A program made the position numbers and the translations under genes. Shown here piece by piece: positions 8,863 to 42,000 of a DNA stretch of 64,000 nucleotides. Source of the stretch: Phoronis australis (Eukaryota; Animalia; Phoronida). The DNA is taken from positions 144,355 to 208,354 of the forward strand of contig NMRA01000492.1 in NCBI GenBank assembly GCA_002633005.1, in the 5' to 3' direction. The notes beneath the pieces were generated by a model that was given only the letters and a program-made list of their open reading frames with translations, was not told the origin of the DNA and did no database searches. The first letter of the stretch is position 1. Every line of letters starts with the position of its first letter.

Positions 8863-9060
8863 GACAACCACGCTGCCCAGATCAACACAGCTGAGCACAG
8901 CACAGAGAATCTCCAACAGGAGTCGGAACAGCCGCCCTCGGCAACGCTAGAAAAACAGAAGAAGGCGTCGCCTAAGAAATCGCCGGCAAAATCCTCTGGC
9001 AAGATGGCCAAGGTCAAGGTACAACTCCTCGACGGTTCTGACCTCGAGGAGACCATTGAT
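8863..9060 (+). CDS. EPB41: 4.1 exon: N-terminal headpiece and start of FERM-N (..[21 protein letters not shown])
   Basis: TTCCAG acceptor, GTGAGT donor; ATG in good context (AAGATGG) at 9004. Confidence 0.9.
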
Positions 9061-15000: not shown

Positions 15001-18000
15001 GGTTGGCTAACGACAAGAAAATTAGCAAGCAATTGAGATGTGAGTATATTTTTGTTTCATTCTGCAGTTTCCTTAATTGTAGAGTGAGAACATTTGCTGT
15101 TGCAGCACAGCCAACGTATTGTTCAGTTAATGTAGAATGGAGCTGTACAGTGTGCCATGCTCGCTAGATAATGGAGCTGTACTGTGTGACAGTGTGCCAT
15201 GCTCCCTAGATAATGGAGCTGTACAGTGTGACAGTGTGCCATGCTCCCTAGATAATGGAGCTGTACAGTGTAACTGTGCCATGCTCCCTAGATAATGGAG
15301 CTGTACTGCGTGGCAGTGTGCCATGCTCCCTAGATAATCGAGCTATACAGTGTGACAGTGTGCCATGCTCCCTAGATAATGGAGCTGCATTTCCATGGCG
15401 GTTAGCTACAAAAATTTAGTGAGCTCACGAAATTGATCTCGTAGTATTCCTGTCCATGATTGGACTTTATTCCCATTGCTAACATGAAAATCGAAGTCCT
15501 CAGTGACCCAGGAAAAGGTTTCAGTGTGTATGGGAGTTCGACGACCCGAAAATTACAAAATTAGAAAATTGCACGTGCTCCTGTTGCCTGTGACTTTTAA
15601 TTGCTCGATCAGGAACAATTATAGATGAGCGGATGAGTGTGGTAATGTTTTTGAAGCCTATCTTGGAACAGTAACACCTGTAAGTTTGGTTCCTAACAGT
15701 AGATTATCAAATATAACTAACTGTTAGGAGTATTGGTTTGCTTTTGTCTACGTCACCACCAGAATCGCATTTTATTTAAACCAGCCGCGAATAACACCCA
15801 CGTGCAATGGTGTTCTCTTCAGACGTCTATTCAATCAACTGTTATCGGCCTTCTGTTGTTTGTGCTGGGATCTCGCGGTGACACAACATGATTCGAAAAA
15901 GCAACTACACCTTTCATTTGATGGGTCTACATTTATTTGTGTGATAAAACTCTCGTTTTCTTATTTTGATAAAGGCTTTGCTGGAACTGACTACCTGGTT
16001 AGCACAATACGTCTAGAATAACAAAATTTCTTTGAACTTAGGTTTTAAACCCCAAAACGCTTCAGTTAAGAATAACCTCAAAGGTTCATTCTTTAAAACA
16101 ACAACAATAACAACTATTAGGCAGTTAAACTCGACGCCAGTCATCAGTTCAAATCTCAATTTAGATACATGGTTAGGTCAGTTGATGATACGAACACCTG
16201 CACTGTGTTATCGGTTCTCTGATATTCTATTTCAAATGCCAGTGTTTTGACATGGAAATCAGAGAATTGGAGGCGACTTACCACACTGTCTGGGGATCCA
16301 CACGAGTCAATGGTCTGATCTAACTATCACAATTGACTAGATGTAAGGAGCTTGAACGCGTGCCTTAATGCTCCCCTCTTCCATTGCAGCGACCCCATGG
16401 GTATTAGCCTTCCAAGTGAAGTTCTACCCGCCAGATCCAGCCTCGTTAGTGGAGGATATCACACGCTATCAACTGTGTCTTCAAGTTAGAAAAGATGTCT
16501 TGGATGGAAAGTAAGTGATTTGTTGGTATCATTGGCCTTGTTGTCATTGAAGGTAACGAAACTGTGCCGTGCGTCTGTTATGCTTGTGTCTAGCTAATTA
16601 TAGATGGTGCTGTAGGTCCACTGTTATAACTAATTGTCACAACTACTCTGGTTTCCTGGCATGGGGCTTACTTTGTTTCCTCATTTATAAATTCCCATGT
16701 AGATAATAAAACGCCACTGATAACCATTTTCGAAACACCTCCATGTCTTGGAATTGAGTTGTGTGCCAAATTTGAGTCGTTAAGTACCGTTAGACGTTGT
16801 TGCATATGTTAGCTTTTCTGTTTGCTCTTGAATATCAGTCGTGGTTGTTATTGTGACATGTTTGTACAAGGTTCTGTAAGGTTAGACATGGTTAAGTCAT
16901 CCCGAGATTCACTTATTGGTAAGATTGAAAGGACTTGTCAAAGACATCATTGGTGGTTTGCAGTCCTATTTCTTGTCGCGTGCTGATCAGGGTAACGGTC
17001 TCGTCAGTAATATTACTGTGTGCTTTCCTGTGTTTCACTCAGCCTTCTTTATTCCTAGACTGCCATGTTCGTTCGTGACGCATGCCCTGCTGGGCTCCTA
17101 CACTGTCCAATCAGAGCTGGGCGACTATGATGTGGGGGAACACGGCATCGGCATCGGTTATATCCAAGACTTCCACTTTGCACCCAAACAGACCACCGAA
17201 CTGTTGGAAAAGATTTCAGACCTCCACAGAACCCACAAGTACGTGTACATTTGTTATTGGATGTATGGTTTATGTGCTGTAGTTAATCTTGTATTATAAT
17301 TGAATGTTTTCTTTCGTTTGAAATCTTGATTTAAACATCTTTATTTAGATTCTTTCTGAAGGTGTCTCTGGAAACCATATAGAGAAGTTTTGGAGTTTCT
17401 TGTCTTGTACGACTTTCAGTCCAGCCTGGTAGATGATGTTACCAATGTACAGTTTGTCTTTGTTACAAGTACTTTTACGTACTGATGTGTAATGGTGATT
17501 TCATCGCATTCATTATGAGCTGTTCTGCTGGGGCATATCTGTAGAGTCGCTGGCGTATCCGTGTGAATGTCCATTTAGTTTAGGTGAAATAAGTGTGCGC
17601 CTTTGTTTCCTTGCAGGGGCCAGAAGCCCAACGAGGCTGAGCTGCATTACCTGGAAAACGGCAAGAAATTGGCTATGTACGGTGTGGACATGCACCCGAC
17701 GAAGGTGAGGAGGGGGAGGTGACTATACACACTGGGGGCTGCTGCAGTAGGGATAGTCTGGATATGACTGTGGTCAAACTTTTTAGTCAATAACTTTACT
17801 TATTTTTAAATCTGAAAATATGTGTCCAGTGTTCAGGAACTTTCTAGAAACAGCACGACTCTCGATATTAAATCAAAAGTCAAAAAGTGAAGGCTAATAA
17901 AAAAAATCTGAGACATGGTTTTGGCATTGAAAGTGGGAAAGTTCAAACACGGCTTACATATGTGGACTTTCAAGACATCGTGTTCAGAAGTTAGAAGTCT

Positions 18001-21000
18001 TGCTAAAATCGTGATTTCATGTAACCAGTCGAACACCACAATTTTGTTCTCTATTTCTGTCACGAAGAAGGCTCGCTGGTCTCGACTTTTGATGTAGTAA
18101 TGTATTTAAGTTTTATTCTTTCGTTGATGTTTTCAAAACTGTAAAATTCATCAAAATAGTGAAAGTAATAAACGAATGTTGACACTATTAACTGAAGTGT
18201 GTTTTTCTTTTGCGATCAAGTGATTCACTGAAAGCCGAGTTATATCTAGATCAACAAGTCACCTACGAGTGATTCACAGTCAATGTTGATTCTGCACCAA
18301 AATGAATGGCCTGAAACTGAATAGAGATTTGATGAACTCGTTGGGCGGTTTCTAATCCAGGCAATCCCTTGACTAGGGCAAGGACTTGGCGTAGAATCAT
18401 GACAAAAAATTTCCCACACAGTTTGGCTTCTGCGTGGTATAACCAATGAAAATGCTCAAAACTAAATATTATATGCATAGCTGATTTATTCAACGCAGTG
18501 GGAGGTTGGGCTTGTACTGTGGGAAATTTCTGGCTGAAGATTTGATTTGATTGACAAACCTGGTGTTTTCCGAACAGCTTTTCAAAAGTATCAATTTTCT
18601 CTGTAAAACAAACTACCTGTGGTATCAAATAAATGTATAGGATTCTCTAACATGTTTTACTGTATGCACAACCACTGCTTTTAAAGCAGATTCACAATTT
18701 CAGTTTTTGTGATTGGTTAAGTGGTAAACTTTCTAAACATTTTCCATTTTGTTTGTTGATTTATCATTGAGTAAACTCATTGGTTGCCACTAAATGTTGG
18801 CTCCCACCAGATGTCACTCTCTTTATGGATGGTAAATTTATTCATAGTTGCATATGACGTTTGTTTCAGGACTCTGAGGGTGTCGAAATCATGATCGGTG
18901 TCTGCGCCAGCGGCCTTCTCATCTACCGTGACAAGCTGCGCATCAACCGGTTTTCGTGGCCGAAAATTCTCAAGATTTCGTACAAGCGAAACAACTTCTA
19001 CATCAAGATTAGACCTGGAGAGGTACGAAGCAAGATTCACTTTGTGACGCATAAAATTGTCTGATGCGTTGGTACATTTACACAAAAGTGTTTGAAGTAC
19101 CATTTGTGTTGGAAGCTTTGATAGAAAGAGAGGTTAATTATAATTTGAGTAGGAACTGTATCGAGATAATTTGTATAAGCGATTGTGCAAATGTGGCAAA
19201 GAGCAGATGCTGTTATATATTAAGCAATTCATTATCTTTGTAGCTAATTAGTCATTGCATTGCTAATTAGTCATGTTAAGCTAGTTGACACTTCTAGTTT
19301 TCCTGGATTGTAGTCTGGCTGGGGTACCTAATTGTACGCATTCTTTTGTTTGCAAAACTGTCTCGAAGTCGTTTTAACTCTGTTCGAAGTCTTAATTAAT
19401 CTGCGCAAGCCTGAATTATCTGGTCCAAGTGATTTCGTCTAAGGAGGAATTTGGCTTCTTTTAAAAAAAGCCGAGTGAAGGAATTATATCAACAAAGGAG
19501 AAAATCTTAGCTTGGGATCATTGAAAAACCAACTTTCATTTGTGCACACCCAACTTAGGTGACTTCGACTGCTGCGAGTTATATAACGTATATGATGTGT
19601 GTTAAGTGTCTGTTGCGTAGGTGTATATCTTCTGGTGTCTGGTTTCAGTTTGAGCAATTCGAGAGCACCATTGCCTTCAAGTGCCCTAACCACAAACAAG
19701 CAAAGAGACTGTGGAAGACAGCAGTGGAGCATCATACTTTCTTTAGGTGGGTGCTGCCACCTGGTGTGCCGTTCATGTAAAGTGTGTAAAGCTGCTTAAT
19801 GGTGCAATAAACTGGTTCTCACTCAAGACGAAGCTCATTGAGCAGATTGTCGGGGAAGGGAGGTTAGCTTCTTCAGTAGAAGCAATATGGCCAACACTGA
19901 ATTCCAGGCACCTTTTTGTAATCAACTTCAGTTCAAACAAAGGACAAGTACGTGATTATATTACTTTTAAAGGGCAAAGGCACCTTTGAGAAAGTTTGAT
20001 ATTGGCGACAAAACATGGTTTATGGAGGTTTTAATTGTGAAATCAGAATTAAGATTAACCCTGTCAGACTGGACGTGAAATTCCCTTGCCATAATAGTTT
20101 CTGTTTTCAAAATTCAACCAAAATTAGGACCTGGGATTGCTTTAAAGCACTCTTATTTCGGGAGCGCTGGCCAACCTTTCATTTTCTCAACTGTTCTTTT
20201 CTTCCGTTAATACTTTGGATGCTTTCCCTGGAATTCAAAGTAAAATTCTGTTCTGATTTTTGGACGGTTGATCAAGAGAAAATGCGAGCATAAGCTCTGA
20301 ATAATTTTAATTACGATACATGCCTCAATTATATGTTGTTCGGTGTTGTTGCTGGACTTGGTGGTGTTCCCTGTTACAGAATGAAAGAGCCGGAAGTGCC
20401 CAAGAAGACCGGACTCTTCCCGGGCTTCGGCTCGCGCTACCGGTACTCCGGCCGAACCCAGCACCAGACGCAACAGTCGGTCATTGACAGGGACGCACCC
20501 ACAGTGAAACGGGGCGGGCCAACTCACAGCAGTATGGACGGTACGTAGATATTAATGTCATAATTGTTAACATTAATAACTGGTTGTTGATTTTACGAGT
20601 CTTTGATTGTTAACAATGTATTGTAGTATTGTCAGGAATATGTTTTTCTCAGATGTCTTACGGAACTAATGTCGGACGAATCTGTTCTGTAGGAAAAAGA
20701 GAAATCAGCTTGGTGAATACCGGTTTACGTTTCAAAAACTCTTGTATAAGGACTGTGACCAGTTACGCATTTGCAAGACGTTGCTGACTTAGAAGTTAAT
20801 TTTATTCAACTCTGTCTACAGTAGCAGCTGTCTCCAAAGTGATGCTGAAAAGTGTCTGACCAAACTGAATTATCGTTATTAGTGTTGTTTTTCTACACGA
20901 ACATTTTGATTCCCTGACGAGGTTGTTGCATCGTGAACTGTTGTGGCATGTACAAAGCTGTACAACTGTCCCCTGTTCGACACGGAAACTGCTACTTTCT

Positions 21001-24000
21001 CGTTTTCGTTGTTGACTAAAATCATGGCAGTATTTAAGACGGCAGAAACCCAAAATGATTTTTGTTTTTGTGTTTAGTCCACTGGCTGTTATAAACATTC
21101 TCGCCGTGTTCCTTACTTGAATTAAAGATGATTTCAAGGGCAGAGGAGAACTGACCGATTGTTATTGCTTCAGACTATTTAACTTGCTTGTTGCGGTGGG
21201 GCTAGTTTCAGACAGTGTGCCCTATTAGGGAATTCCATGAGATTAAGTGTGGCCCAATTTCATTTCAAACAAGGGATAGGAATGCATTTGACAATGTTTG
21301 TGAAGAAAGTTTTTTTTTTTACTCTAGAACGTGGTTTATAGTGGGTAGCTTAAATCTGGGTTAAACTGTAGTATCCTGACTCTAAAACATTGATTTGTTG
21401 AGTAGAATTCAACTTATTTGACCTGTTTATGTATTGTTGTGTTGAGGAGACAGGTAATACGTCTGTTAAAGGAGTCGCCAGAGTTTTTCTCCTCCATTTT
21501 AATCACGTACCCAACCGTCGCTGCCTTTACAGAACTCCATCAATTCGCTCCTGGAAGCAACGAAAGTCTAGACATGGCCGAGCGAAGCGCCACATTACCA
21601 GGTTGTTAGCCCATCTGCCCCCATATGCCAGCATTCTGTACTAATAGGTTGCCCAATGCATGCACTTTGTCATTCCACTATTAGACAGTTTGTTCAGTTT
21701 ACATTGACCGCATGGATAGTCTAGTTAATAAACAGAACTTAATACTCCGAGTCTTGTCTTGTCCAATAGCATGTCTAGTTATGCTACAGTTCTAGTGGTT
21801 TAACTCCAAGATTATGCAGGGTTCCCATTGTGGCTATTAAACTCTGTGCAATGCCATACACTAATACCCTAATAACTGGAAATTGCCTGTGCCACAGAGT
21901 ACTTGAAATCTGATGGTTTTTGTGTGTGAGACTCTGGATAGCCATTGTCCATTAAGCAGTTAACTGGCATACTCATTCTTTTCTTGCTCATAGACAAGAC
22001 TGTTAATGTATGAAGGTTTTATTACACAGCCAAAGAGTCCATCTAATTACTATGCAGAGGACATGCCGAGTTGCTGGGTAGTTAGGTCACTAACAGCTAT
22101 TCTCTGTTTGATATTCTCTGCAGAGCAAAGTGTATTGATTTTTGACATGGATGGCCATGTCTGGCTTTTTGTGTCATCGAAGTTCTATGGGAATAAGTCT
22201 GCTGTCCTTGGGCTCATTTATCTCCATCAGTTGCATGTCTGCCTTGACAAATTCTATGACTGACTACTGTTAGTAACGATTCTTGGCTGTTTTATACTAT
22301 ATTTTCATTATTTCATGGATTCAACTGTTTAACGTAATGCTACAAAATGTTGTTAAGTTTTCATAAGCTCAGATTTCATGAATTTCACTCGGGGAAAACA
22401 GTCAGTTTTTTCTTTCTGCTCTTGTCGACGTGTTTGAGGACAAGGTTGAAAGTTGGTCGCCTTGTCTGATGATTTGATTTACTTATCAGTATCTCAAATT
22501 CTCCTCAGAATAAACATTGTATAATATAACAGATAATAGTCAGGGTTTTTCCTAAGTCAAAATCTGAACGGCGGTGCGAGTTTGTGCAACGAGTTGCCGC
22601 ATTATAACCTACCTTTGTGCTAATTCACTGAAACGACTAGAGGTGCACGATACTTTACTTGATGAGCATAATTAATGCATTTTTGCTGCAAAAGAATAAA
22701 AATAAGCACCACTATGCGACACAACTTCAATCATTTGTCTTGGAAAGTAGACAAAACTCATGGCTCATACCTTTTCAAATTAGCTGAACATTTCCAAACA
22801 TGGGAACAGAAGTTTCCAAACTTGGGGCAGCATTATGCTTGAATACACGTAGGGAGAACTCTTATTTTAAACCGCATGTTATTATTTTGACTTTTGATAT
22901 TTAATTTTGCACGTACGTCATTCATAGATTGCTATAAGCTGTATTATTTCTTTACCATTGACTGTCTTCCTTTAAGTGACTTGTAATTTTGTCATGTAAC
23001 ATCCCATTCTAAGTTTTTAGTTGAATGCTTCTTCTAGGTAATAATCTGAAAGTGTTTATGTAATATGTTACTGTCGATATCTTGTTGGTAAATGTGTCGC
23101 TAATTAGTGTTTTGAATGATTCATGTGGTTGGCTCGTGTTTACAAATTGACTAAAACTTGGTGCAAATTACAATAAAAAAGCAATTTTATTTTGCTAAGT
23201 GTGGCTTCGACACGTGAACAAAAACTGTCACATAGCCTTACGCATGGTGAAGTGAGAGGTCTCAGGGATGGCTGCATCACTAGATTACTGCTAGCCTATG
23301 TGTGTGCTGTATTCATCTTTTTGTCCTGACACCATGTTCCTCTTAACCAGCACATCATGTGACTCGTAACTAGTTGTTAAGTAAAGTTGCAAGCAATGAC
23401 TGGATGCGTTTCTCCATTGTAGCCTACTCTCGCAGGGCTGCTCCAGAAGACTCCATCGAGCCTTCCACAATGCCACGCACGGACCGCGCACGCGCCAGCC
23501 AGGCGGAACCAGAAGAGGTTAGTAGTGCCGCACTATGCGGTGGTCTGTTGGCCGCCTGGGGTGGTCTGGGTTGCGACAGTTGTTTGGGGGCGGTCTATTG
23601 GTTGGAATTGAAAAATAGAGTTGCAATATGAAAGATGTGTGTATTGGGTTTTGTTGTTGTAGATCTTGTACGATGTCGTCTTGTGGAGGCATAGATAAGG
23701 CTGAAAATTGTGAGAAGATGCTCACAAGAAAATAAGATGTCAACAGACTTGAAGCAGGGGTTAATCTGGCTTCCGTCATGAAACTAACATTTGATCTTGG
23801 TCACGAATGGTTATAACTTTTACCTGATTCAGATCAGGGGTGATTCCTGTGCTTTAGGAAGAACTGGGAATTCGTTATTGCTCAAGATGAGGCTCTGCCA
23901 TTTGGCTCGTCTCGGTGGGTCATTTCATGCGCAGTCTTGAGTATTGCCCAACTGCCAGTTTTTTCACATTACAAGAATCACTCCCTATGTAAGTGAGGAA

Positions 24001-27000
24001 CGATTTGGTAACAATTTTTGGCAGTAAGTAGTTTAAATCAAAAGTTAGTTTCTGCGACAGCCGGCGACAAGTTATGATTGCTTTAAACTACTGATTGAAA
24101 CATAAGTTATTGTTCCTGTAATTTGTTTCTTGATGTGACAGGTGTCCCCTGTGGTCCCTTTCGTAGGTCATCGCTCTTTACCACCTTTCCTTGTCTCCCT
24201 TTCTCATTTAAGTTAAACCTGGCATGTATGGCAGCCTAGCCCACATTGGTTAGTCAAAGCAGAGTACGCGTAAAAATCGAGGCTTAAACCTCACTGGTAT
24301 CGCAAAACTCCTGGTGTACATTGCTGTGTGTTCACTGAGGTTACTGCGTTACATAAGTTGGGTGGACACCACTAGTCCAAGTTGGTCTTGACGACCCTAA
24401 GCGAAGAAAATGGCCACAGGTGCATGAGATTGGACAGCTACCTACCTGGAGTGATGAATTCTGGGGATGAATGCTGCATAACCCCACTGTGCTTGTAAAT
24501 TCTCTTGCTAGGCCACGTCTCTTTTAGAAAAACTCTTAAATGATGAGACTCGTGCTTGGCGAATGCGTCTTTAGTCTTACTTTGTTTCTCTAGTCACTCG
24601 TTTTCTTCAGTACATGTATGGGCTATAATCTTTATGTTTCTGCACCGGTAATGAATCGTAGTAAAGCACGTTCTATTCTGAACTTGTATCCATTGTCTGT
24701 CAAAATTTCCATTTTTAAACGAAACTTTCTTCTCCTCATAGACATTTACCTGTGCATCCTTTGTGTATGGTAATCCTGTATCGATGTAGGGTTTTGGGAG
24801 GCTTTGCAGTTGGCTAGTTGGGGACATGCTGTTGGAGTGAGGTGTTTGCAGCAGTTTAGTTTTGATCCGTTATTAACCCTGCACTCTGCAAATACCATTT
24901 ATGGGAGATCTACAGTAGCCTAGACAATATATGCCTTGTGACAGTATATACAGGGTAAATTTTTCCTGGTAGATAAATGTTCCCAGGATGCAAATATATG
25001 AAAAGTGCACATGATTGAACTATAGCACTTTCCCCTGGTTCAGAGGAAATGGACACAATACATATTGCCCCGATGCATGGTAAATGGAAATAGTAGTGTG
25101 ATGTTATAGTAAAACTGCACTTGTCGGTCAAGTGAACATGACTGCTACTTTGTTGGAAAAAGACTTTGAACCTAAAATCATGACACCAGATCACTCAATT
25201 TGAGGTTGCTCATCTGATCACATGTAGTATAGCTGTTGTGTTGGGACACGTATTTATTTCAATGGCGCATTGTGTTTCTCGATTTTTGGTTAGTTTGAAA
25301 AAATAATTCCAAGTTCTGATATTAGGTGGGTTAGCACTTCTACTTTTGTCACCATTGTACTTTGTTTGACGTGGCATATTTGGCTCTCATTTTCGTATTA
25401 TCCGTCTTTGAAATTTCAGATTTCTGGACCTTACTTTCATTTTTTCGTAAAACTCTGTAAACCAGATCATCTAAGCTTTCGCCTTAATTAGTAATGTCAC
25501 ACTGTGTACAGTTAGTAGCCATATCTCTGTTGTCTGTAGCATAGTGCTATCACTCTTGACATGCTGCTAACACACTCAGGTCATAGAGGACATTGATGCT
25601 GGTGAACAGGTTGAGGGGCCACTTGTCACCCGAAAAGAGCGTTACTCGCCCTCGACCAGTCTGCCGCGCGACTCATCCCTGCCGCGGGCTGTCAAGAAGA
25701 AAGGATACAAACCAGAGCGCCCCGTGGTGGCCGAAGAGATTGTGCCCGTCGAGCACGAACGCAGCTACCAACAGCACCCGCTCCTATCTCCTTCCTCTCC
25801 GCTACAGGTTTCTCCGTCTTTCTAGTTTTTACGTTCATTTCTTCTGTTCTCTTGGTGCTCCATAATACTAACTTTTAACGTTTGGTTAGCTCTCATTCAC
25901 CTGTCTTTGTTTTTTTTTTTTTGTTCTTTAAGCATTCATTTTCTTTAGATTTTTCTAATTTCGTTCTCGCTTCTGAATAGCTGTTTTCTTTGTTTTGTTT
26001 CTGAGTGGTAAATCTGATGTTAATGTTCACCGACTCACTCTGGGAGTGATTATTTCCTCAGCCCGGACAATATACTTTTGTGACCACTGATCAGGACGGT
26101 AACGTGACGCAGTGCGTGGCTGAGCCCGACGGCACCATTATTTCGCGCAAGACGCTGCCTCCTATCAAGAAGGACAGCACCCTGCCACGCCCGAATCTGG
26201 GCCCCAGGAGTGCAAACACGTACCCCCGGAAACAGGTGGATAGACCCTAACGGCATGCTAACAACAGCCTTGCGCTCGGAATGTTGATTGCTATGTTCCT
26301 AGGATTACTTTTCTGTTCAATCTAATGGCCCGCTTTTTAAAAATCTCGTCTTTGTCTCTTGTCTTAGACCTTGAGTGGTGTCTTCTCCTCTAGTGACCCG
26401 TGGATGTTCACAATGTGCCTCTGCTGTGAAACTGTTTCAAGACTTGCATGATACTATATTGCGCTCAAAGAGTCCGCGTCATCGTCTACAGACGGGAGTC
26501 TGTATTGTGTTGGTGTTAAAGGCGTACATCGACGTGGCAGTGTTTCACTTTTGCTATTTGTGAATGACATACCTGTCCATTGTTTATATTAACGATACAG
26601 TTTGTAGGTGGTTCAGCCTTATTCATTTACAGCATGAAATTGACTGCTGAGTGTGATGCGTACTGTGTTCTTCCAGTTACAGACTATAGTGACTGGATGT
26701 CTTGAGTCTTAAAATTTGGTTTGAAAACACTGTCTCTCTTTCACGTCCATCTCTTCTTGTCGCATCATTTCTCTCCACCGTAAAAGCCTGCAGCTGTTAC
26801 AAGGTGAAACGGCAACTTTTGTGGGTGATGTAGTACAAGCTGAGGATTGTTTATTCTTCTAGATCTACTATATGCTAGGTGTTCTTCTGAACGTTCAGGA
26901 ATGTATTGTGAAGTCTATGTTTTGCCGTCTGTTTTTCTCTGGGCCGTCCATCATTGGTAGGCTCTCAATGTGCTGTTTCATATAATGGCATGCTCTTGAC

Positions 27001-30000
27001 TCTGCACCCCGTTGTTTATAGTATTTAGTTGTGTTTGTTTCATTTTGTTATGTTGTTTAATATGCCCTACTTCGCGCTCTAAATGATCACTGTTTGTCAG
27101 CGTTTTACGCTGGTATTTCACACTTTTATTTTCACGCACAAACTGATAATCACTTTGTTTGACGTGTTCTCTTGTACTGAAAGCTTTTTTGTCTCGTCTC
27201 TTGTGTTCAGTTTCTTCTGCAGTGTCTTGTTCCATCACTATGTTTCTAATTCCTTTCTGTTGTTATTGTAGTACGACCAGGATGACCTTATCCGCGCCAT
27301 GGGCAGTGCTAATTGGTGGAAGTATGCTCCGGAGGAGCGGTTCGCCATGCTGGGGCCCCAGCGATGCTGTCCCACCCAGGAAGAACAGGAGAACCTGTTG
27401 CGTGACTGGCCGCTGTTGAAACCGCAGGAACGCGCCGATGTTCTGAAGCGGTGGCCGCGTCTGACACCAGGAGAACGAGAGAGACTGCTGGACGACTGGG
27501 CCAAGCTGAACCCCGAGGAGCGCAAGAAGACGCTGTCCCAGTGGTACGACATGGCGCCAGTGGAACGCCAAGTACTATTATCCAACTGGGATAACCTGTC
27601 GCCGGAGGAGCGCAAGATTCTGATGAACAACTGGCCGCTGTTCACACCGATGGAGCGCGCCATCCTGCTGAGCCAATGGCCTAAGCTGTCGCCAGAAGAG
27701 CAGGACCGCATACTAAGGGACTGGGACAAGCTGACGCCGGAGGAACGAGACATGGTGCTGAGAAATTGGTACAAACTGTCGCCAGAAGAACAAGACAAGC
27801 TATTGGAGGCTGAGAAGGCACGACGACGGGCTGCCAACTTACCTGTGGACGTGAGTAGTGGGAGGCATACTGGTAAGGTTGGAGCTGTTGAGCTATGTGT
27901 AGATCTGAGCTCTTGGGAGAGAACATATTTGTGGGGTTGGTGTAGCTGATAAAAATGTCACTTGTTTATTAGACTTAGAGGTACACGCAGTTAGATGGAT
28001 ACTGTCCATTTTTCAAGCTTAAGGCAGTTGTTGTATTGCTATATTTCGAGGAGAATTTTTCGAACCATTTGTTGCTCATCGCACGGCACCAATGACTCAC
28101 ATTACTCACTTCCATAAGAGGGAGCTGGTGAGTGTCATGCAAGTGTGTTGCACGTGACACTTTGAAGTGGATTCCAATACGAACCATGACACTTTTGCAC
28201 AATTAGTGATTATATCTTGACCCCCAAAAGTGTTTTTGTCTGTGTTTGGAAAAATACACGGGAAGTTCTAACGGTGTTGTCTGTGTTCACTTACAGGGTG
28301 TTCAAGATGAACTGATTCAGAGGTATGGCAAGGACACGAGTGCCATTGACTATATCAAGACGGCGGCCGCGCTCACTCCGGAGGAAGAGGTGCGACTACG
28401 GCTCCAGGAGGATCTGAAGAGGCAAGAGGCTGCTGGGGAATCTGTCGACTCGGTGAGTGAGGATTGGCTAGGTCACATGACTCTTGGGCACCAGATTTTT
28501 GTCTCGGTGTCACGCACTTTGGTTGTAACAGGGTGGAGAGATGAGCCAGTATTGGGACTTGTTCATGCTCTGAGTAAGCAGTTGTCAGTTGCGTGGAAGG
28601 GCAGGACTCACTGCGTGACGTTGTTCCCTCTTTTCGTGCGAAATGTACGCAAAATGTAAAACTTGGTAAGCTCGCGCACATTTTTCATAACATCAAAATG
28701 ATTTCTGCCCAGTCAAATTGTGAGTTAATGCATTCCGTTATGCTTGGCAATGCAAACATTACTAGTGCATAAACTGCACGTTTTGGTCGAGAACGAAACT
28801 CGTGAAAGATAATAAGAGTATCCTGGAAGATGCACAGAAAATTTGCGGAACATGAAAACGAATTTGACAGCGGGAATCGGGATCTGAAACCTAGCCATGG
28901 TTTTGACAGAGTCCAGCCTTGAAGTTTAAAGGTCCGTCCAAGTGTCTTAGTCTTGCTTGACCGTGTACAGCTGCCATCGCATTTGGACATCATGCCCGCA
29001 GTTTTTGGGGCCAGCGGCAGGACTGCAGTGCTTTTCAGTTTTTGTTTCCGCATAGTGTAGCCACTGTTGTTACAAGTCCTAGCATCGAATTGTTTCTCCA
29101 CCCTGTGTAAGGACTGTGCACTGTTTCAAGCACTGTGAGTGAAACCATCTTTCATGTGGTTCAATTGAATATTGTTGTTGTGTACCATTCACCCACGTGT
29201 CTGTTCTGGAACAGAGTATGCCGTGACCATGCAAAAAGTTCCTAAGTTTTTGCGTGCTGGCTGAAACACTTGGCAAATCTCGGAACTGTTTTTTTTTTTT
29301 TTTTTTTGAACTTACGAAGCACATCCTGAGCAGTTTGTGGGCTCGTATTTTTGTGTACTCTTTGGTTTTAGCTAAACAGTCTATGGTGCTAATTTTTGTC
29401 TTGACTATTAAAACATGGGGGTTTGGTGGCAGCCAAGAGCTATGTTTCGCCATTTTGTAGCAGCTGTAAACTGTCACCGTTTTGAGCAACTTGAGACAGC
29501 GGTGAAATATTGCCGTCTTAGAAGTTGTCTAAATTTTTTGCCTTTTTTGTCATTTCATTGTGACACCACGGTAGCCAAATCTGCTTGGATTTGATTATAG
29601 TCTCCCAAAAGGGAGTTGCCAAGGCATTTTGTCATGAACACAAAGTTATTTAGACATAGTGTTGTTTCCTCGTCACGACGGTGCTGTCCCGTCATAACGA
29701 TGAACTCCGTTCGCACTTAGCCATTGTAATGGGAAATTCCAGTTGCATTGCAGTCAACATGACGTCGAATTTCTAGTCATTCTGCACGTTTCTTGGTAGA
29801 CCAGCTATGCCTGGCCGTTTTTGTTGCAGTTTAGGTGGCAACTTGTTCCAGCTGAAATTTTAGCCGTAGCTGTTTGGGCATTTTGTACTCAAGTTCTGCC
29901 TGTGTTTAGACTCTAGTTTGACCGTTACTGTAGACAGTAGTTTGTTTTAGACTAGGTCTCAGGGCCGCATGAGTCTCAGTGGTTGACATGCATTGGTTGC

Positions 30001-33000: not shown

Positions 33001-36000
33001 AAGTATAAAAATTGGGTCTCTTCCTTTGGAACCCAATCACACCAAGCTTGTTCTCAGTGCCATACAAAAACGGGGGGAAAGAAAAAGGCGGAAACCAATT
33101 CAATTTCATCCAGTCTGAGTAAGAACTCAGTTGTCTGTCCCCTGTTTACGCCTTTCCCTTCCCGTTTAATTAACGTGTTGAGAAGGGTTCCAACGATCTG
33201 AGAACGAGTTTGTTGCTAGAGGGTCTTTATAAGTAACATATTAACTCACACATGAGAAATCTTTTAAGAACTTGGTCTCATCTGTCAGCTCACTCACCTT
33301 TAGTTCCAGTAGATTTTTAACATCATCACGTTTCCACATCACTATAGCAACTGCCGTCATCCACTCCTGATTTCCATATGCACTTTTTAGTCTCTTAGTG
33401 TGTTGTGGCTGTTGTGGAAGAATATCGAAGGAGCCATTCTTCAGCAAGTTTGTCGTAGATTTGATTTAGAATTTCTTGGTGTTGTACCGTTGTTGTACCA
33501 ATTATGCCTTGTAACATAGAGACAAAGTACCTGAGTCGAAGACTACATGGGTTTTGTCTCAACGAGGCACCAATAGGTGTGCAGGATGAGGTTTTTCACA
33601 CCTCTTGGAAGTCTCACCGTGCACATCGTGGAGTTGACGTTTCAAATTGGCGTCTGATAAGCCTTGTGCAAGCATTTCGCTGCAGGAGAGTATTACCAGC
33701 TAAGATGCTAACTGAAAGTTGAATGGTTATGTTCGCTAGCTTGCTACATGCCCATCTGAACTCAGCTGGCAAGAAACTGAGGAATTCAACAGCGCGGAGG
33801 TGTAGAAATCAGTTGAAAGCATCATTGACATCACCAACACTGTTTACATTGTATCATAATATTAAACTCCTCTTCGCGTATTTTTCCACAGTGATTATAA
33901 GAGGAGTTGTAGTATTGATTAGTTTATTTGCCTATATCTTCAAATGTACCGCCAGATCTCTAGCGGAATAAACTCATTATGGAAGAGTGGAAAACAAGTT
34001 GAAATGAACTTCTGGAAAACTTGTGTGATCAGTTGCAAGGCTTGGAATTTTCCGCGGAAACGCGGATTTCCGCTTTTTTCAAATGTTCTGTCTGCGTATT
34101 TTATTATATTTCCGCGTTAAAAAAATCGGATTTGATATAAAATTTCCGCGGCAAATTCCTTTCTTGCCGCGGCGTTGCCGACGACTTTCACCTCGAAAAG
34201 CGGAAGTTGCTCTTTATGTTTCGGGGCATCTGGGATAGCGTGGTGGATTTTTCAATGGCCTGGTGCGATTGTAAACCGCGGTGACAAATACTACGACTCT
34301 GCAGCCAAAAATGTGCGGAGGTGGGAGTGGACAAGCCAGCTAAAAAGAAGCAGACGCTCGCTTCCAGAGGTGGTACCGTTTTGTTTTTTTTTTCAGTCCT
34401 CGCGTTTTTTTTTTTTGTCGGCAAGGTGTCCACATGGGCCATATCGAGGCCGGGAAGCGTGCATGTTTTGGGCCGTAAAAGTTTCCACGTATTTCGTCAT
34501 TGGTCATTCCAAGCCCTGCAGTTGTTAACTAAAAAACAGCACGTGCTGGAAGTGCATGCGGAAGAAACACAGTATTGGTAGCACTGTCCAGTTTGTGGTG
34601 CTGTTCATTTGGTAAGATAAATGTAGCCATTTGATTCACTGGTGTTCAGCGGATTTATTTGCTCATACAACATGCAGGTCAAACTTGAATATCCACAAAT
34701 TTTGTTTTGGGACAGAAGACCCTTCTTAGAGACACAGATGGGTGCTTTATACATGCACACTTGCAATTGCTTGCTGCGTCATTCCTGAAGATATGGTGCC
34801 ACTACTGCTATGAGACCTGTCGAAAGCTCCTTCCGTGAAGGGTGCTGGCATAGACGTGAGAAGTATGAGTACTTGTGCTTCCTAATGCTTTAGGTTGTCT
34901 GGTGCAAGTCTGGTCTTTCATTCAGTGGTGTCATCGAATGGAGATTTCCGTTGAAGGTCACAGCTGCGTCGGGAGGTCATGTCATATTCGGTGTAGATGT
35001 TGTTTCTTGAGCAGTGGGTGCTGAATGGGTCTTACATTTGCCTAGCACCATGCCTAGTGTTGGCTCAACTGATCACAGACAGTCGGATTTTGAGGTTCTG
35101 GGTTTCTGACCCTCATTAGAATAGTAGTCTGTTCTCACTCGGGTCATTCATCTCAAAGTATGCAACATGTAGGTGAGCATTCCCAAACATATTTGCACTC
35201 AAATGCACAGACATATTTCATCATTATTGACTGATACACAAGTCTTTTTGCATGCCCAAGTGCCACAAAGGTTTGGCAATGGTAAAGTCAGAATTAAGGT
35301 GCATGCCAAAACATGGAGTCGTCGGAGTGGGGGGGAAGGACTAGCGAATCTCAGGTGTGTTGTCTTTCAGCGGACTACTGTGCAATCGACTGCCACAGAA
35401 AAGTCCACCAAATACACCAGCGAAGTGCCATTGGTCAAAACCCAGAAGAGGGTTATAAATGTGGAGGTTGACCCTAACGGGACGACACGAGTTGAAAAGG
35501 AAATCACCATCACCGGCAATAGTCAAGACATTGACTATGATGAAGTGAGTATTTATCTGTTCAGTTTTCTGCTGTCCGCTTGTCCGTGTTGCATTCATAT
35601 GAAGCCCAGATTCAGCTTCGGCTTAAAAAAGTCATAGAGCGGTTATATGTGGCAAATATTTTTTAATACATCAAGTTAGCCTTCCTACTTTCACCTGATA
35701 ACACTGTGGACTTGTTGAAGTTCAGTGACAGCTGCAAGCTTGTTGTGGCTTTAAGAAAAATGCATAATACAAAGTATCGTCTGAAGAGGGATTGTTTGGT
35801 AAGAGTGTGATTGAGGTTTGTGAAGCGCGGCCTGTTTGCTCTAAGAGTTACTTGTCGGTCACTTTGAAGTATCACCTCTCTCACGTATAACGTTGACAGC
35901 ACAATGCCTCCAGTAGCTATAAAGTTTTATGCAACCCAGCTATGGCCTATGCTTAAATGAGCTTGTGATCACAGTAATGTTAGTCATCAAATCTATCAAT

Positions 36001-39000
36001 TTTAATTGTGACTTGCATCTCGTGGATTGTTGGGCATAAGCATCTGAGAAGAGGAAAGTTAAGCCTAAGTTGTTCTAATCCACTTGTCATTTCCTACCAG
36101 GCATTGGCAGCTGCCATTCGTGAGGTGACAGACATGGATCCAGATCTCTCTGTAGACAAAATAGAAATCAAGACAAGCTAATCAACTCAGGTGAGGGTGT
36201 GTTTAGATGCTTTGCTCGCTTGACCTACTGTTTGTTAATTGTGTGAGGTTTTATAACAGCCACGTATTGGTTGCAGATGCCCTGAAAAAGCATGTGCGAT
36301 AAAGTTGGTGGTTAGCCCACTTCACTGTTCACTCCTAGATCAGTATAGAGCTCTGTGCTTGCTGCGTAATGGAAGTGTTAGCAAATTACAATATTTCAGC
36401 ATTTTTTACCCACACCTCTGCAGTACTATTCCGTAGTTAAAATCGTGCCTTTTTCATTTCAGTCACTCTCTCAACACCGCCTGCCTGAGTGTTACCGTGG
36501 TTGCACATTGCGGTGGAAAACTCGCTGTATATGTCTTTCTATTTGGTGTGGATTGCTGCTATCGTCGCCGCTTATCGTTGTCACCTGGATTGTAAAAAAT
36601 GGTGCAACTATGTTGCCAGCATATGAAGGACTTTTATTGACGTATTTTAGCCAACATCTGACCTTCAGCTTCCATAGTCGTGTTATGTGATGAAAACTTG
36701 TCATGCTAGCCTGTGTCATTTTGATAATGTTTTAGTACTCATCAATAAATATTTGTACGACATACTATTTTTATGTAGAAGCATTGAGCACCAGAGTATT
36801 GTGAGTATTGTATTTCGTAGATGCATTAAGTTGTAAACAAAAGAGTATAGATGTTTGTTTCTCTCAATGGTTAAAAGCTTTTCCCTAGGTGCGTGTATGT
36901 GCGGCTGAAATCGTTGACGTTCAACTTGCACTTGTGCTCTGATAAGTAAACATTTTAAATACTGGGAAATTTTTTGTATATGAATCAAGACTGCTCTGTG
37001 TTGCCTTGACAATGTGGAAGTGTGTGAGGACTGCCCACTGTTTGTGTCATTTTAGCTGTATGATAGATAGATTGATAGATAGATAGAAAGATATGCTCAT
37101 GTGCTGAATTTGTAAGTTTTAACATTTTGTCATGTGCTACTGTAATTTTTAGTACATATGTTGTTTTGAAAATGGTGGTATGGCTTTTACTAATAATAGT
37201 AATAGTTTGTGATAAACATGTTCTGAAAAGATTTTATTTTTTCATTTTTGCCTCACACAATCACAGTTCTACCTTTCACATTTATTTCTTTGTGTCTTTA
37301 AACGTACTAAGGAAATTAAGTTGATTACAAGAGAGAAAAGGTAAACAAAAGGGTGTTTTCTGTGCTAGTGTTATGATGTGCAAACTGTTAGGAAGTGTTT
37401 CTGTGCTGTTGTGCCTACCATGACTTAATGTTACTATGTGTATCTGCTTTATGGTGGAATGCTTAATAAACTACTTCATTTTAAAGTTACCTTGTTTTCG
37501 TGCACATTATTGCGAATAGTACAAACCCCTCTGGTGTTGCTCGTTTCACCTCTTCTATTTCTACATGTAGCAAATGTGTTGGTCTTGGAGTAGTCGGAAC
37601 AGCATGATTAGAACGGCCTTGGATTGCTCCCGCTGTGCCTCCATCGGGTTTCTTTTCTGTCTGCCCGTCATTGTGTCCATCCTTCAGTTCATGTTATTGC
37701 GTAGACAGGTCTTGTGCAGGTAGTGTTCGACTTGCATCGTCCAATTTGCATGTTGTTGGATTGTTGAACAGCCACTTTTGTGGTGATTCCGCTTGTCTTT
37801 GTTGAGCTGTTTTCTGTCTTGTGTTTGCGAGTAGTCCTCGAGTTTTGGTAACATGTGCATGGTACACTCACAACAGCTGTTTTGTGTTTCTTATTTTCAC
37901 TATCTATCCATTTCGTGTTTTGCTTTCTGGTGCATGTTTGATGCATTTTGTGTGTTTTTGAGCCAATTATTTTTTGGCAAAAAGATCATTGCTACACACT
38001 CACAAGAATATCACTGCTACACACTCTGAACAAGAATATAAACACTCAACAAGAATATCACTGCTACACACACTGAACAAGAATATAAACACTCAACAAG
38101 AATATCACTGCTACACACACTGAACAAGAATATAAACACTCAACAAGAATATCACTGCTACACACACTGAACAAGAATATAAACACTCAACAAGAATATC
38201 ACTGCTACACACACTGAACAGGAATATAAACACTCAACAAGAATATCACTGCTACACACACTGAACAGGAATATAAACACTCAACAAGAATATCACTGCT
38301 ACAAGCACTCAACAACAATATCCCTTTGACAGACGCTCGACTAGAATATCCCTGCGACATACTCTACAAGAATTTCAATGCCAGGCGCTCAACAAGAATA
38401 TCACTGTTGCAGACACTAGTCTACAATATCACTGTAGCAAACGCTCAACAAGAATGTCATTGCTAGAGATTGTCGACAAGAAAAACAGGACCACGGGCAC
38501 TACATAAAAACGCCACAGACACTACAAGAATGTCAATGTTACAATGATTCAACAAGAATATCCCTACATGACCATTTCAGCAATGTTGGTTGTGTGTGCA
38601 TGGAGTTGGACGTATTAGCACTTGTATGTTTGCTCTGTTCTCTCAAATGAGTGACTAAGACCCTCGCAATATTTTATGGAATGGGGCCTCTGCTTTGGAA
38701 ACTAGCAACGTTTTGACCCATTTCTATCCATCTATTATTCTGTCAATTTTGAGATGAGTTCATAATGTAGAGGTATGTTTCCTAAACTTTTCTGGGCTTT
38801 TGTGGACTGTTGCTTGAACAAAACTTGACGTCATTTTGATTTGAGTAAGTGAGCTTCCTTTTGGTGTGGGTTCTGTGCAAAAGGTCCACTTGAAGGTTGC
38901 TGTGTACAACTACAAAAAGAACCTGCGGACAAGTGTCGTCTGGAGGATGTAAATTTGCTAGGGGCCCACAGGGGTGTGGTTGTCAGAAGTAGGTGACTTC

Positions 39001-42000
39001 TATCAATCATAGGCCTAAGCTTCTTATTTATCAAACGTTTCGCTTGTGAATGGAGTAAACAGACACTCTGATGCTAGTTTAGGTTTGTTTTTGTTGTTTG
39101 GGCTTGGGCTTGATCGTGGTGTTTGTCAAGATGCCTTCTATGTTTTTGTCAGCCAACACACCTAGTGCTGTTGTCAACAACTGACCACAAAATAATGCAT
39201 GTCTGTGACCCATACTGATATCATCTTGTCACGTGTCGCCATATTTCTTAGCAAGTGCGATGGTGTGTTGTGTACCTTGTTCTGGATATGAAGCGTCATT
39301 AAAAAAGTGGAACAATATTCCACCGGTTTCCAAATGATGCAAGAGTGCTTAGGCAGTGGTTAGCATCCTAACTAAAAATAGCAATGATCAGGATATCTGG
39401 AGTGGGGTAACCAGTTGTGCACATAGTGTTGCCAGCAAGAATTCCGTCAATCAATTGAAAACAAATGCCGTTTTAGGTAGAGAATTCCTTGAAGCCTTGT
39501 GCTTTGCATGCAAAAGATTTGCGTGAACTGCAGTTATAGAAGTAACAATTTTGATAATGTGCAGCCACTGCATTTCAAATATGCTGACTACGATAATGAA
39601 AAAACATTTAGATCTAAGATACTTTGACAACCAAATTGGAGACTTGATGTTCACTAGGTGGTGCTAATGAAGATACGGACCTCTTTTTTATCGTCTGAAT
39701 TGAGCGAGGACAGAGACCTATGGAATCCACCATGAGACATGATTATGCACCTATAGCTACCGTGCATGCTTTTCAGCTAAGACCGCTGTTCTATTATCAC
39801 CACTTATAAATTCCGAGCTCGTGAAAAAGTTGTTTTGCTAATTATTTTAGACTTTATTGTTAGTGCACTCCATCTTTTTAACAAAAGTATGACAGGAACA
39901 TTATGTGCACTTTGATGGCAAATGTCTGCACATGCTTGGCAAGACTGTTGATGCATGACATAGCGTTAATTGCATAGCAGTTCACTCTTTGGTATGCAGG
40001 TTCCTTTTCCTATTGAGCCATTTCATAGGAAAAAACGCTATCAGCGTTTATCAGATGGCCGAGGCTGACCTGTAGTTTAGATGTGTATGTAATTGAAAAA
40101 GCGATAAGTAATTGATTATGTTTGTCAATATTTTGTGTTTGCCTGTTCTATAATATGGAGATAGCTAAATAATGTGATTTGCTGCGGAAATCCGCTTCGA
40201 CGTGATGTAATATATCATGTGAAAAGAATCCTACTTTGATACCCCAACCAGTCGAGATTGGGCGAGTCGACGGGTTTGCGCACCTCAGAATCTGCCAATT
40301 TAGATCAAAGACATCATGCTGTTGTAGTTAATTAAATCGCCTCTCTAGATAATGATGCCCATCATAAAAACATTGGGGGTAACAATAGTGTTTTTAAATT
40401 TTCATTTTGAAAGTTTGTAAATAGCATATTTGAATAGTTCATGAAAAGCACTCGCAATAAGGTTTTTGAAGTTGTGTCACGGTACAATTATTGGCATGAG
40501 TTCCGCGGTCAAGACCCTGCTGAGACATAGACCTTCTCAAACTTGCAATTTCAGTTAACAGCGTACGGCCAACAAACGATGTGTCAAAGATAATGGTTGC
40601 TTTTTGCTGCTCCAAGTTTGAGATGTTTTTCAAACGCACCGTGTCTCACGATTTTTTGCTCATTCTAGCCCCCAACTGTGCAGACAACTCCTGTAACCTA
40701 TGACCCGGACTCAGAGAACTCCTCCAAGTACACTCGTGATGTGCCGCTAGTGAAGACCAAGAAACACACTGTCAGTTACGAAGCAGAGGGCGCTGAAGAG
40801 CCACAAGATGGGGACCTGGTGACGTCACAGTCGCATTCTAGTCGGTCACAGACTATAGAAACAACCACAGTGTGTGAAGCTTCAACTGAACTTCTCCTAG
40901 ACACGTTTGCATATTAGTTATACGCTGTATAGCAACGTTGATTTCTCACTTTCTGCTACTGTTGACCATTGCACTTGGCATTATATAGCAACTGAACTTG
41001 TGAAACTTTGGTTAAACTCATTTGGGAAATTGTAATGCCCTCTGGTGGCTTTTTAAAGCTTCAGTACCTAATTGCGTTACAGGAAGCTGGATACAAGCTG
41101 TTACATCTCACTATTGCGTGTCGTATTCACATTGAAATGGTCTGTCAACGATCAGATTGATTTGTAACTGTAAATTGTATGCAAACCAGCTTAGACGGAC
41201 AGTTGCGGTTTTGGTAGTGTAATTCACCTTGACGTAATGTGCTTTTGACTGTCTAATGAACATCGATTACGGTGAGGCATGAAAAAGTTTATTGTTGAAT
41301 GCATTTTGCTGTCTCTCTGCATGCATCAACAGTAGTCTTCGTTGAGGTTTTGGCATGTGTTTGATGCCTGTTTGTTTCGTTTTCAGTATACTACAGAAAA
41401 AGATGGCATGATTGAAACTCGTGTGGAGAGGAAAATCACAATCACTGGTGATGGGGAGGACATAGACCACGATGCAGTAAGTTGGACTCATAATTGTTTG
41501 TTAACTTTTGATTCGGACCACACACCGCTATAAAATTGGTCTCAACTGGTTCCTTGACAAGTGATTTCTGGTTTCTTACAGTTTGTTTGTTATTTCCTGA
41601 GATTATGTTTGTCGCAAAACATAATACGCCGTGTCAAGAGGACTTGCAGAGCCTGTTCTTGAGAAATAACGAATTGTCAGTTCCTTCAAATCCCTGATAT
41701 CAACCTCGGTTAGACTAAGGATTAATTTGAAACTAATTTCAGGATAGGTGGCCAAATTCAAAACCTTTTTTTGTCGTGGAAAGCCAGTTTGTAGACAGTT
41801 TCAGTGTTTTTTTTGCATAAAAGTAACGCCCAAAAAGTTTTTCTATTTTTCTAAAACCTTCTACCTTGATACAAGTATTTTGTAAAGTAATTTGACAGTG
41901 GTACAGTACAAGCCATGCTTGAAATAGTGTTTTCTTCATCTAATGCTGAGAAATTTAAACACAATTAAATTCTCCACCTGTTGGCCATGTGAGATTGTGC

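What the first reader, a model, noticed from the sequence alone, without database searches (positions are those of the whole stretch)
27272..27850. Protein 4.1 carries an exon encoding a 15-aa Trp-anchored 'WxxLSPEER' tandem-repeat domain
Seen: nine exact-period 15-aa units ([15 protein letters not shown] / [15 protein letters not shown] / [15 protein letters not shown] / [15 protein letters not shown] / [15 protein letters not shown] / [15 protein letters not shown] / [15 protein letters not shown] / [15 protein letters not shown] / [15 protein letters not shown]), two degenerate upstream units, and an LTPEEE echo in the next exon. The W, P and E positions are conserved while the DNA has diverged between units, which suggests protein-level selection rather than a minisatellite. 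The exon is phase 0-0 and so skippable. Known: I know of no such repeat in vertebrate 4.1R/G/N/B or Drosophila Coracle; the exon lies in the region where vertebrate 4.1 proteins have the spectrin-actin-binding domain. Inference: a helical solenoid ([ST]PEE N-caps, stacked Trp), superficially like the bacterial DUF3106 W..L.PE.R repeats, giving an isoform-specific scaffold module.
Basis: partly seen in the sequence, partly recalled or inferred. Interest (0 to 1): 0.82.

Follow-up and report, generated by a model that had tools for sequence, protein, structure and literature searches.

The report
Tryptophan helical-repeat exon in protein 4.1
In this invertebrate's gene for the membrane-skeleton adaptor protein 4.1, one exon that RNA reads show spliced into essentially every transcript encodes nine 15-residue tryptophan repeats, predicted to fold into a small helical solenoid that likely arose on the spot by exon duplication and likely serves as a stiff spacer or docking surface.

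Summary
Observation confirmed. Exon 27272-27850 (phase 0-0) encodes nine exact 15-aa units with invariant W1/P6/E8; periodicity beats 10,000 of 10,000 shuffles, and dN 0.56 versus dS 1.35 between units. RNA reads splice it in: 200 junction reads in, 299 out, no skipping joint. So it is constitutive in these runs, not isoform-specific; the two exons upstream are the alternative ones. The gene is a true 4.1 (FERM, FA, CTD). None of 78 other 4.1 proteins carries the repeat, though none is a close relative. New here: the next exon (28297-28452) matches both ends of this exon (anchored score 49; best of 2,000 shuffles 36), which points to tandem exon duplication followed by amplification of one helical unit. 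AlphaFold2 predicts a helical solenoid (pLDDT 82, single sequence). Pfam DUF3106 passes its cut-off (45 bits), but that profile is promiscuous and its typical members are mostly 18-periodic, so kinship is unresolved. There is no spectrin-actin-binding (SAB) homology. Other invertebrate 4.1 linkers carry unrelated repeats, so repeat gain here is a recurring habit. Function is inferred only. Verdict: real, apparently undescribed variant of a known protein; moderate interest.

The parts
27272..27850 (+). Repeat exon (exon A), phase 0-0, 193 aa, constitutive in the runs examined
   Evidence: joints into it 109+10+81 reads, out 299 reads, none skipping
27407..27811 (+). Nine exact 45-nt / 15-aa units, W-x-x-[LMF]-x-P-x-E-[RQ]-x-x-h-[LM]-x-x
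   Evidence: predicted 3-residue turn plus 9-residue helix per unit
27314..27358 (+). Degenerate unit -2 (residues 15-29)
   Evidence: profile score 9.9, 2 of 2,000 shuffles
27362..27406 (+). Degenerate unit -1 (residues 31-45; lacks W1 and P6)
   Evidence: profile score 1.7, in register with unit 1
27272..27304 (+). Head of exon A, similar to the head of exon B
   Evidence: 58 of 100,000 shuffles reach the anchored score
27776..27850 (+). Tail of exon A (last unit plus long helix), similar to the tail of exon B up to the splice donor
28297..28452 (+). Exon B, phase 0-0, 52 aa, one un-amplified LTPEE unit; probable tandem sister of exon A; always joined to A in the reads
   Evidence: both-ends score 49 versus shuffle mean 3.7, max 36 of 2,000; 0 of 7 control exons significant
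25580..25807 (+). Alternative cassette exon upstream of A
   Evidence: joints that include and that skip it
26062..26235 (+). Second alternative cassette exon upstream of A
   Evidence: joints that include and that skip it
23423..23517 (+). Linker exon whose donor joins to 25580, 26062 or directly to exon A
   Evidence: 60, 22 and 109 reads
17059..20540 (+). FERM lobe 2-3 and FA exons (17059-17238, 17617-17704, 18870-19022, 19649-19746, 20380-20540); further FERM exons near 9004, 10644, 14997 and 16391 by tblastn only
   Evidence: joints, tblastn, Pfam FERM_M, FERM_C, FA
35371..42738 (+). C-terminal-domain exons, in two sets (35371-35544 + 36101-36181; 40669-40869 + 41384-41479 + 42643-42738)
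   Evidence: second set not covered by the RNA lays

Best explanation
This is a constitutively spliced coding exon of an invertebrate protein 4.1 gene whose nine 15-residue Trp repeats are predicted to fold into a small alpha-helical solenoid that likely arose in place and likely acts as a stiff spacer and docking surface between the FERM-FA head and the C-terminal domain. Shown: the exon, its frame, its splicing, the repeat, the slower change at amino-acid-changing sites. Predicted: each unit gives a short W-x-x turn, a Ser/Thr-Pro-x-Glu helix start and a 9-residue helix; W1, L4, h12 and L13 of neighbouring units would pack into a shared core, leaving positions 2, 3, 7, 10, 14, 15 exposed and variable. 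Inferred origin: one phase 0-0 exon carrying a single L-[ST]-P-E-E helix was duplicated in tandem (exons A and B), and in copy A a 45-nt unit was then amplified about 9-11 times, long enough ago for silent sites to have diverged strongly. Inferred function: since conservation sits in core and helix-capping positions, the selected property is mainly the fold (a rigid element in an otherwise low-complexity linker), possibly with a partner bound on its surface; no partner is identified.
For: Splicing: 59/55/86 reads enter exon A and 62/83/154 leave it in runs X2-X4, 7 joints listed, none skips it; loose ends before 28297 agree 100% with exon A's end; depth in exon A (80-219) equals or exceeds FERM exon depth (64-140). 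Selection: dN 0.56, dS 1.35 between units, no indel across nine units; both variants listed in exon A are synonymous, against 3.5-7.7 replacement variants expected at the intronic rate. Fold: single-sequence AlphaFold2 mean pLDDT 82.3, pTM 0.68 for the core, five models 72.6-82.3, one helix per unit; best structural rows are all helical repeat or solenoid proteins. Local origin: both-ends match to exon B, same phase, GC3 0.72 within the range of the gene's other exons, 0.46-0.79; the gene also has duplicated CTD exons. Context: 8 of 68 other 4.1 linkers were flagged as repetitive, all in non-vertebrate-named rows, with unrelated periods such as 25, 45 and 60.
Against: No partner, structure or phenotype was measured; 'spacer or docking surface' is inference. 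AlphaFold2 tends to be confident on idealised amphipathic repeats (own knowledge), the first two units score only 62-74, and structural Z-scores (best 8.3, rmsd 4.0, 128 aligned) are within the background for helical repeats. The exon A/B test was designed after I saw the likeness; the DNA-level test of the tails was only marginal (194 of 5,000 codon shuffles) and the head alone, unanchored, is weak (204 of 5,000). The polymorphism argument rests on two variants, and 38 of 78 variant rows were not shown. dN between units is still high (0.56), so constraint is loose at many positions. RNA covers three runs of one study (about a fifth of each run) plus one contig set; tissues unknown. A skip of the whole block from 20540/21601 to 30767 or beyond is excluded only by depth, because 18 of 33 joints were not shown. 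No related species with the exon was available, so between-species conservation is untested. In Drosophila the FERM domain alone rescues the cora dorsal-closure defect (PMC8006247, passage), so 4.1 linkers can be partly dispensable.
Confidence: 0.6

Rival explanations
1. The repeat is a tolerated, function-poor filler: an amplified unit kept only in frame and in a non-aggregating helical pattern, with no dedicated partner or essential geometry.
For: Invertebrate 4.1 linkers are very variable and several carry unrelated repeats; exposed positions vary freely; FERM alone rescues a cora phenotype (PMC8006247, passage).
Against: Nine of nine W, P and E positions are kept while silent sites are 63% different; no indel among nine units; no replacement variant listed; constitutive inclusion while neighbouring exons are optional.
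Confidence: 0.15
2. The repeat is a true DUF3106 descendant brought in from outside, by a Helentron-type transposon or from a bacterium, and then exonised.
For: Pfam DUF3106 45.3 bits against a cut-off of 24.3; 38 of the 57 phmmer hits pass that cut-off; 15-residue spacings do occur in typical DUF3106 proteins (7, against 33 of 18 residues, my count over 34 small DUF3106 proteins); DUF3106 is reported as a captured domain almost only in HLE2 elements (PMC11417382, passage and Table S11 row).
Against: Exon B matches both ends of exon A; GC3 is host-like; the best typical DUF3106 hit is only E 8e-8 and the top hits are unrelated 15-periodic proteins; the profile also passes for a TrbI-like protein, a FecR protein and other unrelated repeats; no second copy in the window.
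Confidence: 0.12
3. The repeat is an independently evolved spectrin- or actin-binding module, a functional stand-in for the vertebrate SAB domain.
For: It lies between FA and CTD, where vertebrate 4.1 has SAB (PMC1459144, passages; one search shows PF04382 only in vertebrate-named rows); it is constitutive.
Against: No SAB hit in exon A or the eight other linker exons scanned; the core is slightly acidic (net -3); vertebrate SAB is a short, alternatively spliced peptide region, not a solenoid (own knowledge); other invertebrate 4.1 proteins lack the repeat.
Confidence: 0.08
4. One reading: an isoform-specific scaffold module switched in and out by splicing.
For: Phase 0-0; neighbouring exons are alternative; few tissues sampled.
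Against: 0 skipping joints against 299 reads on 27850>28297; roughly 1-2% upper bound for a skip into exon B in these samples.
Confidence: 0.05

Closest known systems
'True' protein 4.1 / Coracle (FERM + FA + 4.1 CTD; one gene in invertebrate genomes per PMC1459144)
   Same: FERM_M, FERM_C, FA and 4_1_CTD exons in order; FERM-FA up to 80-81% identical to annelid-type proteins, 64-73% to vertebrate ones; alternatively spliced linker.
   Different: Carries a constitutive 15-aa Trp repeat absent from 78 of 78 homologs examined (best E 4.9); no SAB; duplicated CTD exon set.
Pfam DUF3106 (PF11304)
   Same: W-x-x-L-[ST]-P-E-[EQ]-[RQ] motif; passes the gathering score.
   Different: Typical members among the hits are small stand-alone proteins with mainly 18-residue spacing and score mostly 60-120 bits; here the spacing is uniformly 15, positions 12-13 are hydrophobic, and the array is an internal exon of an animal protein.
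Other 15-periodic [WFYM]xx[LM]xPEE-type arrays: Darwinula stevensoni PARP-domain protein (P0002) and NTPase-like protein (P0022), a TrbI-like protein (P0003), unnamed P0005, P0006, P0010, P0012
   Same: Same period and the same aromatic/Leu/Pro/Glu pattern.
   Different: 19-43% identity, unrelated host proteins, single-member clusters where looked up; most simply repeated independent amplifications (inference).
Alpha-solenoid / designed helical repeat proteins (DHR14 fusions 5h7c, 5h78), MgtE N-domain superhelix
   Same: Predicted stack of short helices; top rows; weak Foldseek rows to MgtE (E 0.2-1).
   Different: Scores are at background level for helical repeats; these repeats have longer units or other periods. 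No membership claimed.

Membership tests
True protein 4.1 (host gene) | FERM domain | tested here: met
   FERM_C 59.6 bits, FERM_M partial exon E 5e-4; tblastn over all lobes
True protein 4.1 (host gene) | FA region directly after FERM | tested here: met
   PF08736 42.5 bits at 20381-20539
True protein 4.1 (host gene) | 4.1 C-terminal domain | tested here: met
   PF05902 at 41384-41479 (25.8 bits, cut-off 25) and weaker at 42643 and 36101
True protein 4.1 (host gene) | Repeat exon spliced into the same transcript chain as FERM and CTD exons | tested here: met
   chain of joints 17238 to 35371, open over 781 codons; short reads, so no single molecule spans it
SAB domain (PF04382) | Sequence match to the SAB profile | tested here: not met
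   no SAB among the 18 families listed for exon A at E<=10; none in other linker exons
SAB domain (PF04382) | Promotes spectrin-actin binding | not testable with these tools
   needs co-sedimentation
DUF3106 (PF11304) | Score above Pfam gathering cut-off | tested here: met
   45.3 and 47.6 bits versus 24.3; but unrelated repeat proteins P0003, P0005, P0007, P0021 also pass
DUF3106 (PF11304) | Mainly 18-residue motif spacing (empirical trait of the typical members found here, not a curated definition) | tested here: not met
   33 spacings of 18 and 7 of 15 in 34 small DUF3106 hits (hand count); exon A has only 15 or 30
DUF3106 (PF11304) | Common ancestry with bacterial or Helentron DUF3106 | tested here: inconclusive
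   weak, repeat-driven hits; exon B paralogy favours local origin; no genome held to look for elements
Known alpha-solenoid families (HEAT, Pumilio, MgtE-N/FliG) | Clear structural match over most of the domain | tested here: inconclusive
   best Z 8.2-8.3, rmsd 4.0, 128 aligned, within background for helical repeats
HMG box | Profile match and basic DNA-binding surface | tested here: not met
   PF00505 E 5.4, 8 bits; PDB UBF box E 0.22; net charge -3
Minisatellite / non-coding repeat | High DNA identity between units, no codon-position bias | tested here: not met
   55% DNA identity, third positions most diverged, dN<dS; not listed by TRF

The most novel reading that the evidence does not exclude
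A minimal 15-residue alpha-solenoid was born inside a conserved cytoskeletal adaptor, with its un-amplified ancestor still sitting in the next exon, and it became an obligatory binding module that does in this lineage what the spectrin-actin-binding domain does in vertebrates (or binds another membrane-skeleton partner), converging on the bacterial DUF3106 motif.
Probability: 0.12. Interest if true: 0.75.

Novelty: new variant of a known kind. Interest (0 to 1): 0.4.

Why it matters
It gives a small, traceable case of a probably folded repeat domain arising by exon duplication and internal amplification inside an old protein, with the likely single-unit sister exon available as a built-in control. 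It also suggests that the FA-CTD linker of invertebrate 4.1 repeatedly gains unrelated repeats, and that DUF3106 hits in animals and transposons may often be convergent 15-periodic helices. It does not yet change what is known of 4.1 function, because no partner or phenotype is known.

Tried and rejected
No whole genome is held, so no genome-wide search for further copies or Helentrons and no check of gene copy number. Searches for close relatives of exon A gave none: 1.84 billion representatives, 57 hits, best 1e-31 to an unrelated repeat protein; longer proteins, 0 of 760 candidates; exon B, 0 of 88 candidates; JGI metagenomes, 3 weak loci, of which I read two (a phage tape-measure-like ORF by my reading, and a chance 21-residue match); ESM Atlas, no usable hit twice. 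These blanks are weak evidence and do not prove novelty. PDB sequence search: 3 rows, best E 0.02. NCBIfam: nothing near a cut-off. Foldseek: no match at E<=0.001 for either model. Homodimer prediction: no answer, score 0.00, not evidence either way; that program's own fold of the chain was uncertain (pLDDT under 50) in at least one run. FERM tree of 29 rows (one per lineage chosen by me from 78 hits) left the window's animal unplaced in an invertebrate polytomy; a first tree was void through my frame error. Five-unit block duplication within the array: lag-5 identity 0.62, permutation p 0.07, not accepted. Likeness of exon B to the Lingula linker: 256 of 2,000 shuffles, rejected. The 239-aa antisense frame over the exon is rejected: reads are essentially all of one orientation. 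The run finder listed no indexed holder on record as RNA; X2-X4 came by species label and were validated by the lay (about 80% of laid reads at 99% or more identity). Earlier findings of the scan: three look-ups, nothing. Paper searches listed no paper describing such a repeat in protein 4.1; most subscription papers are not in the library. The HELIANO figures and any supplement naming the hosts of DUF3106-bearing elements were not visible to me.

Full report
Observation. Window 27272-27850 reads as 193 codons without a stop between an AG and a GT, in phase 0-0. Nine units of exactly 15 residues lie at 27407-27811. W1, P6 and E8 are invariant, position 9 is R or Q, and positions 4, 12 and 13 are mostly hydrophobic. 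Identity at lag 15 is 0.33, while 10,000 shuffles reach at most 0.18 at their best lag. The units are 55% alike in DNA, third codon positions are the most diverged (0.43 against 0.67 for second), and dS is about 1.35 against dN 0.56. Tandem Repeats Finder does not list the array. Two degenerate units precede it and the echo in the next exon is above chance.

The host gene. tblastn with 4.1 proteins finds FERM, FA and CTD exons in order from about 9004 to 42738; Pfam confirms FERM_C, FA and 4_1_CTD. By the definition in PMC1459144 (passages read) this is a true 4.1. The FERM-FA region is 80-81% identical to annelid-type proteins such as Capitella and 64-73% to vertebrate ones, but the tree leaves the animal unplaced among invertebrates. 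No genome is held.

Splicing. Three raw stranded RNA runs of one study (about a fifth of each read) and one contig set of another study were laid on 16800-36000 and 23300-28600. In one search seven joints are listed. Donor 23517 joins 25580 (60 reads), 26062 (22) or exon A (109); 25807 joins 26062 (42) or exon A (10); 26235 joins exon A (81); exon A joins 28297 (299). No joint skips exon A, and loose ends before 28297 agree fully with exon A's end. Depth inside exon A (80-219 at listed sites) equals or exceeds that in FERM exons (64-140). The exon is therefore constitutive in these samples, with an upper bound of roughly 1-2% for a skip into exon B; the optional exons are 25580-25807 and 26062-26235. 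A skip of the whole block is excluded only by depth, since 18 of 33 joints were not shown. The RNA-supported chain is open over 781 codons. Both variants listed in exon A are synonymous; 3.5-7.7 replacement variants would be expected at the intronic rate, but 38 of 78 rows were hidden and numbers are small.

Relatives. A profile of the repeat finds nothing in 78 of 78 protein 4.1 homologs (best E 4.9). Many of these are isoforms or fragments and none is a close relative, so this shows restriction, not age. Of 68 homologs with a long enough linker, 8 were flagged as repetitive, all outside the vertebrate-named rows; the clear ones have unrelated periods (60 in P0062, 45 in P0102, 25 in two Leptopilina proteins), the others are low-complexity. 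Repeat gain in this linker is thus recurrent. A full HMMER scan of 1.84 billion representatives gave 57 hits, none above 51% identity. The best are unrelated proteins with their own 15-periodic arrays: an ostracod PARP-domain protein, a TrbI-like protein, an amphioxus lectin and unnamed proteins. Thirty-eight of the 57 pass the DUF3106 cut-off.

DUF3106. Exon A scores 45.3 bits against a cut-off of 24.3, so by Pfam's rule it is a match. But the profile also passes for unrelated repeat proteins, and typical small members space the motif mainly by 18 residues (33 spacings of 18 and 7 of 15, my count), whereas exon A uses 15 throughout. Only one work in the library, in two versions, mentions DUF3106: it lists the domain among those captured almost only by HLE2/Helentron elements (PMC11417382 and its preprint, passages and one row of Table S11). 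That keeps an outside origin open; I could not see which hosts are meant.

Origin. Exon A and the following exon B (28297-28452, also phase 0-0) resemble each other at both ends: the first 11 residues, and the last 25-27 residues up to the donor. With both ends anchored the score is 49; 2,000 shuffles give 3.7 plus or minus 7.9, maximum 36; none of 7 control exons is significant. Exon B holds one L-T-P-E-E unit. The simplest history is tandem duplication of a one-unit exon followed by amplification of a 45-nt unit in copy A. The test was devised after I noticed the likeness, and the DNA-level support is marginal (194 of 5,000). GC3 of exon A (0.72) lies within the gene's range, and the CTD exons are also duplicated.

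Fold. AlphaFold2 without an alignment gives pLDDT 72.7 for the whole exon and 82.3, pTM 0.68, for the core, with a three-residue turn and a nine-residue helix per unit and a longer final helix. The best structural rows are helical repeat and solenoid proteins, at Z 8.2-8.3, rmsd 4.0, 128 aligned, which is background level for such folds and assigns no family. The fold is a prediction.

Mechanism. I commit to a folded, constitutive helical solenoid that works as a rigid spacer and possible docking surface between the membrane-binding FERM-FA head and the CTD (0.6). Conserved positions are those expected for core packing and helix capping, the exposed ones vary, and the net charge is -3, which argues against a nucleic-acid or HMG-like role. 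There is no SAB homology. Rivals: tolerated filler (0.15; FERM alone rescues a cora defect, PMC8006247, passages), captured DUF3106 (0.12), functional SAB analogue (0.08), isoform-specific module (0.05).

Novelty. Seven paper searches (listings seen, passages of four papers read) showed no description of this repeat in 4.1; the library lacks most subscription papers. It is a new variant of a known protein. The feature is real and its birth may be traceable, but lineage-specific repeats in this linker are not rare and no function is shown, so I score interest 0.4.

Noticed in passing
window 35371-36181 and 40669-42738: Two sets of 4.1 CTD exons: a shortened copy ending in a stop at about 36181 (RNA joins 35544 to 36101) and a full-length copy further on; the two align in three blocks. 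Probably alternative 3' ends by exon duplication.
   Followed up: partly
window 21533-21601 and 30767-30859: Two more cassette exons: reads join 20540 directly to 23423 and 28452 directly to 32432.
   Followed up: partly
window 34036-34520: Intronic element with very high read depth on both orientations and many loose ends, likely a multi-copy transposon fragment.
   Followed up: no
window 46249-46860: THAP-domain ORF (PF05485, 56.8 bits) downstream of the 4.1 gene, perhaps part of a P-element-like or other DNA transposon (inference).
   Followed up: partly
P0062, P0102, P0096/P0099: Other invertebrate 4.1 linkers carry their own unrelated Gly/Asp-rich tandem repeats (periods about 30/60, 45 and 25).
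   Followed up: partly
P0004 (Branchiostoma belcheri lectin): Its 15-aa Trp repeat before a C-type lectin domain looks to me like a collagen repeat read in the wrong frame; not checked on DNA.
   Followed up: no
P0062, P0094: Labelled as gregarine transcripts but they group with or resemble annelid 4.1; likely host contamination.
   Followed up: partly
P0002, P0022 (Darwinula stevensoni): Two unrelated ostracod proteins (PARP-domain and NTPase-like) carry 15-aa F-x-x-L-x-x-x-E-R repeats much like this one.
   Followed up: partly
window 14512-14701, 15147-15387, 37996-38465: Intronic minisatellites of period 21, 42 and 47.
   Followed up: no
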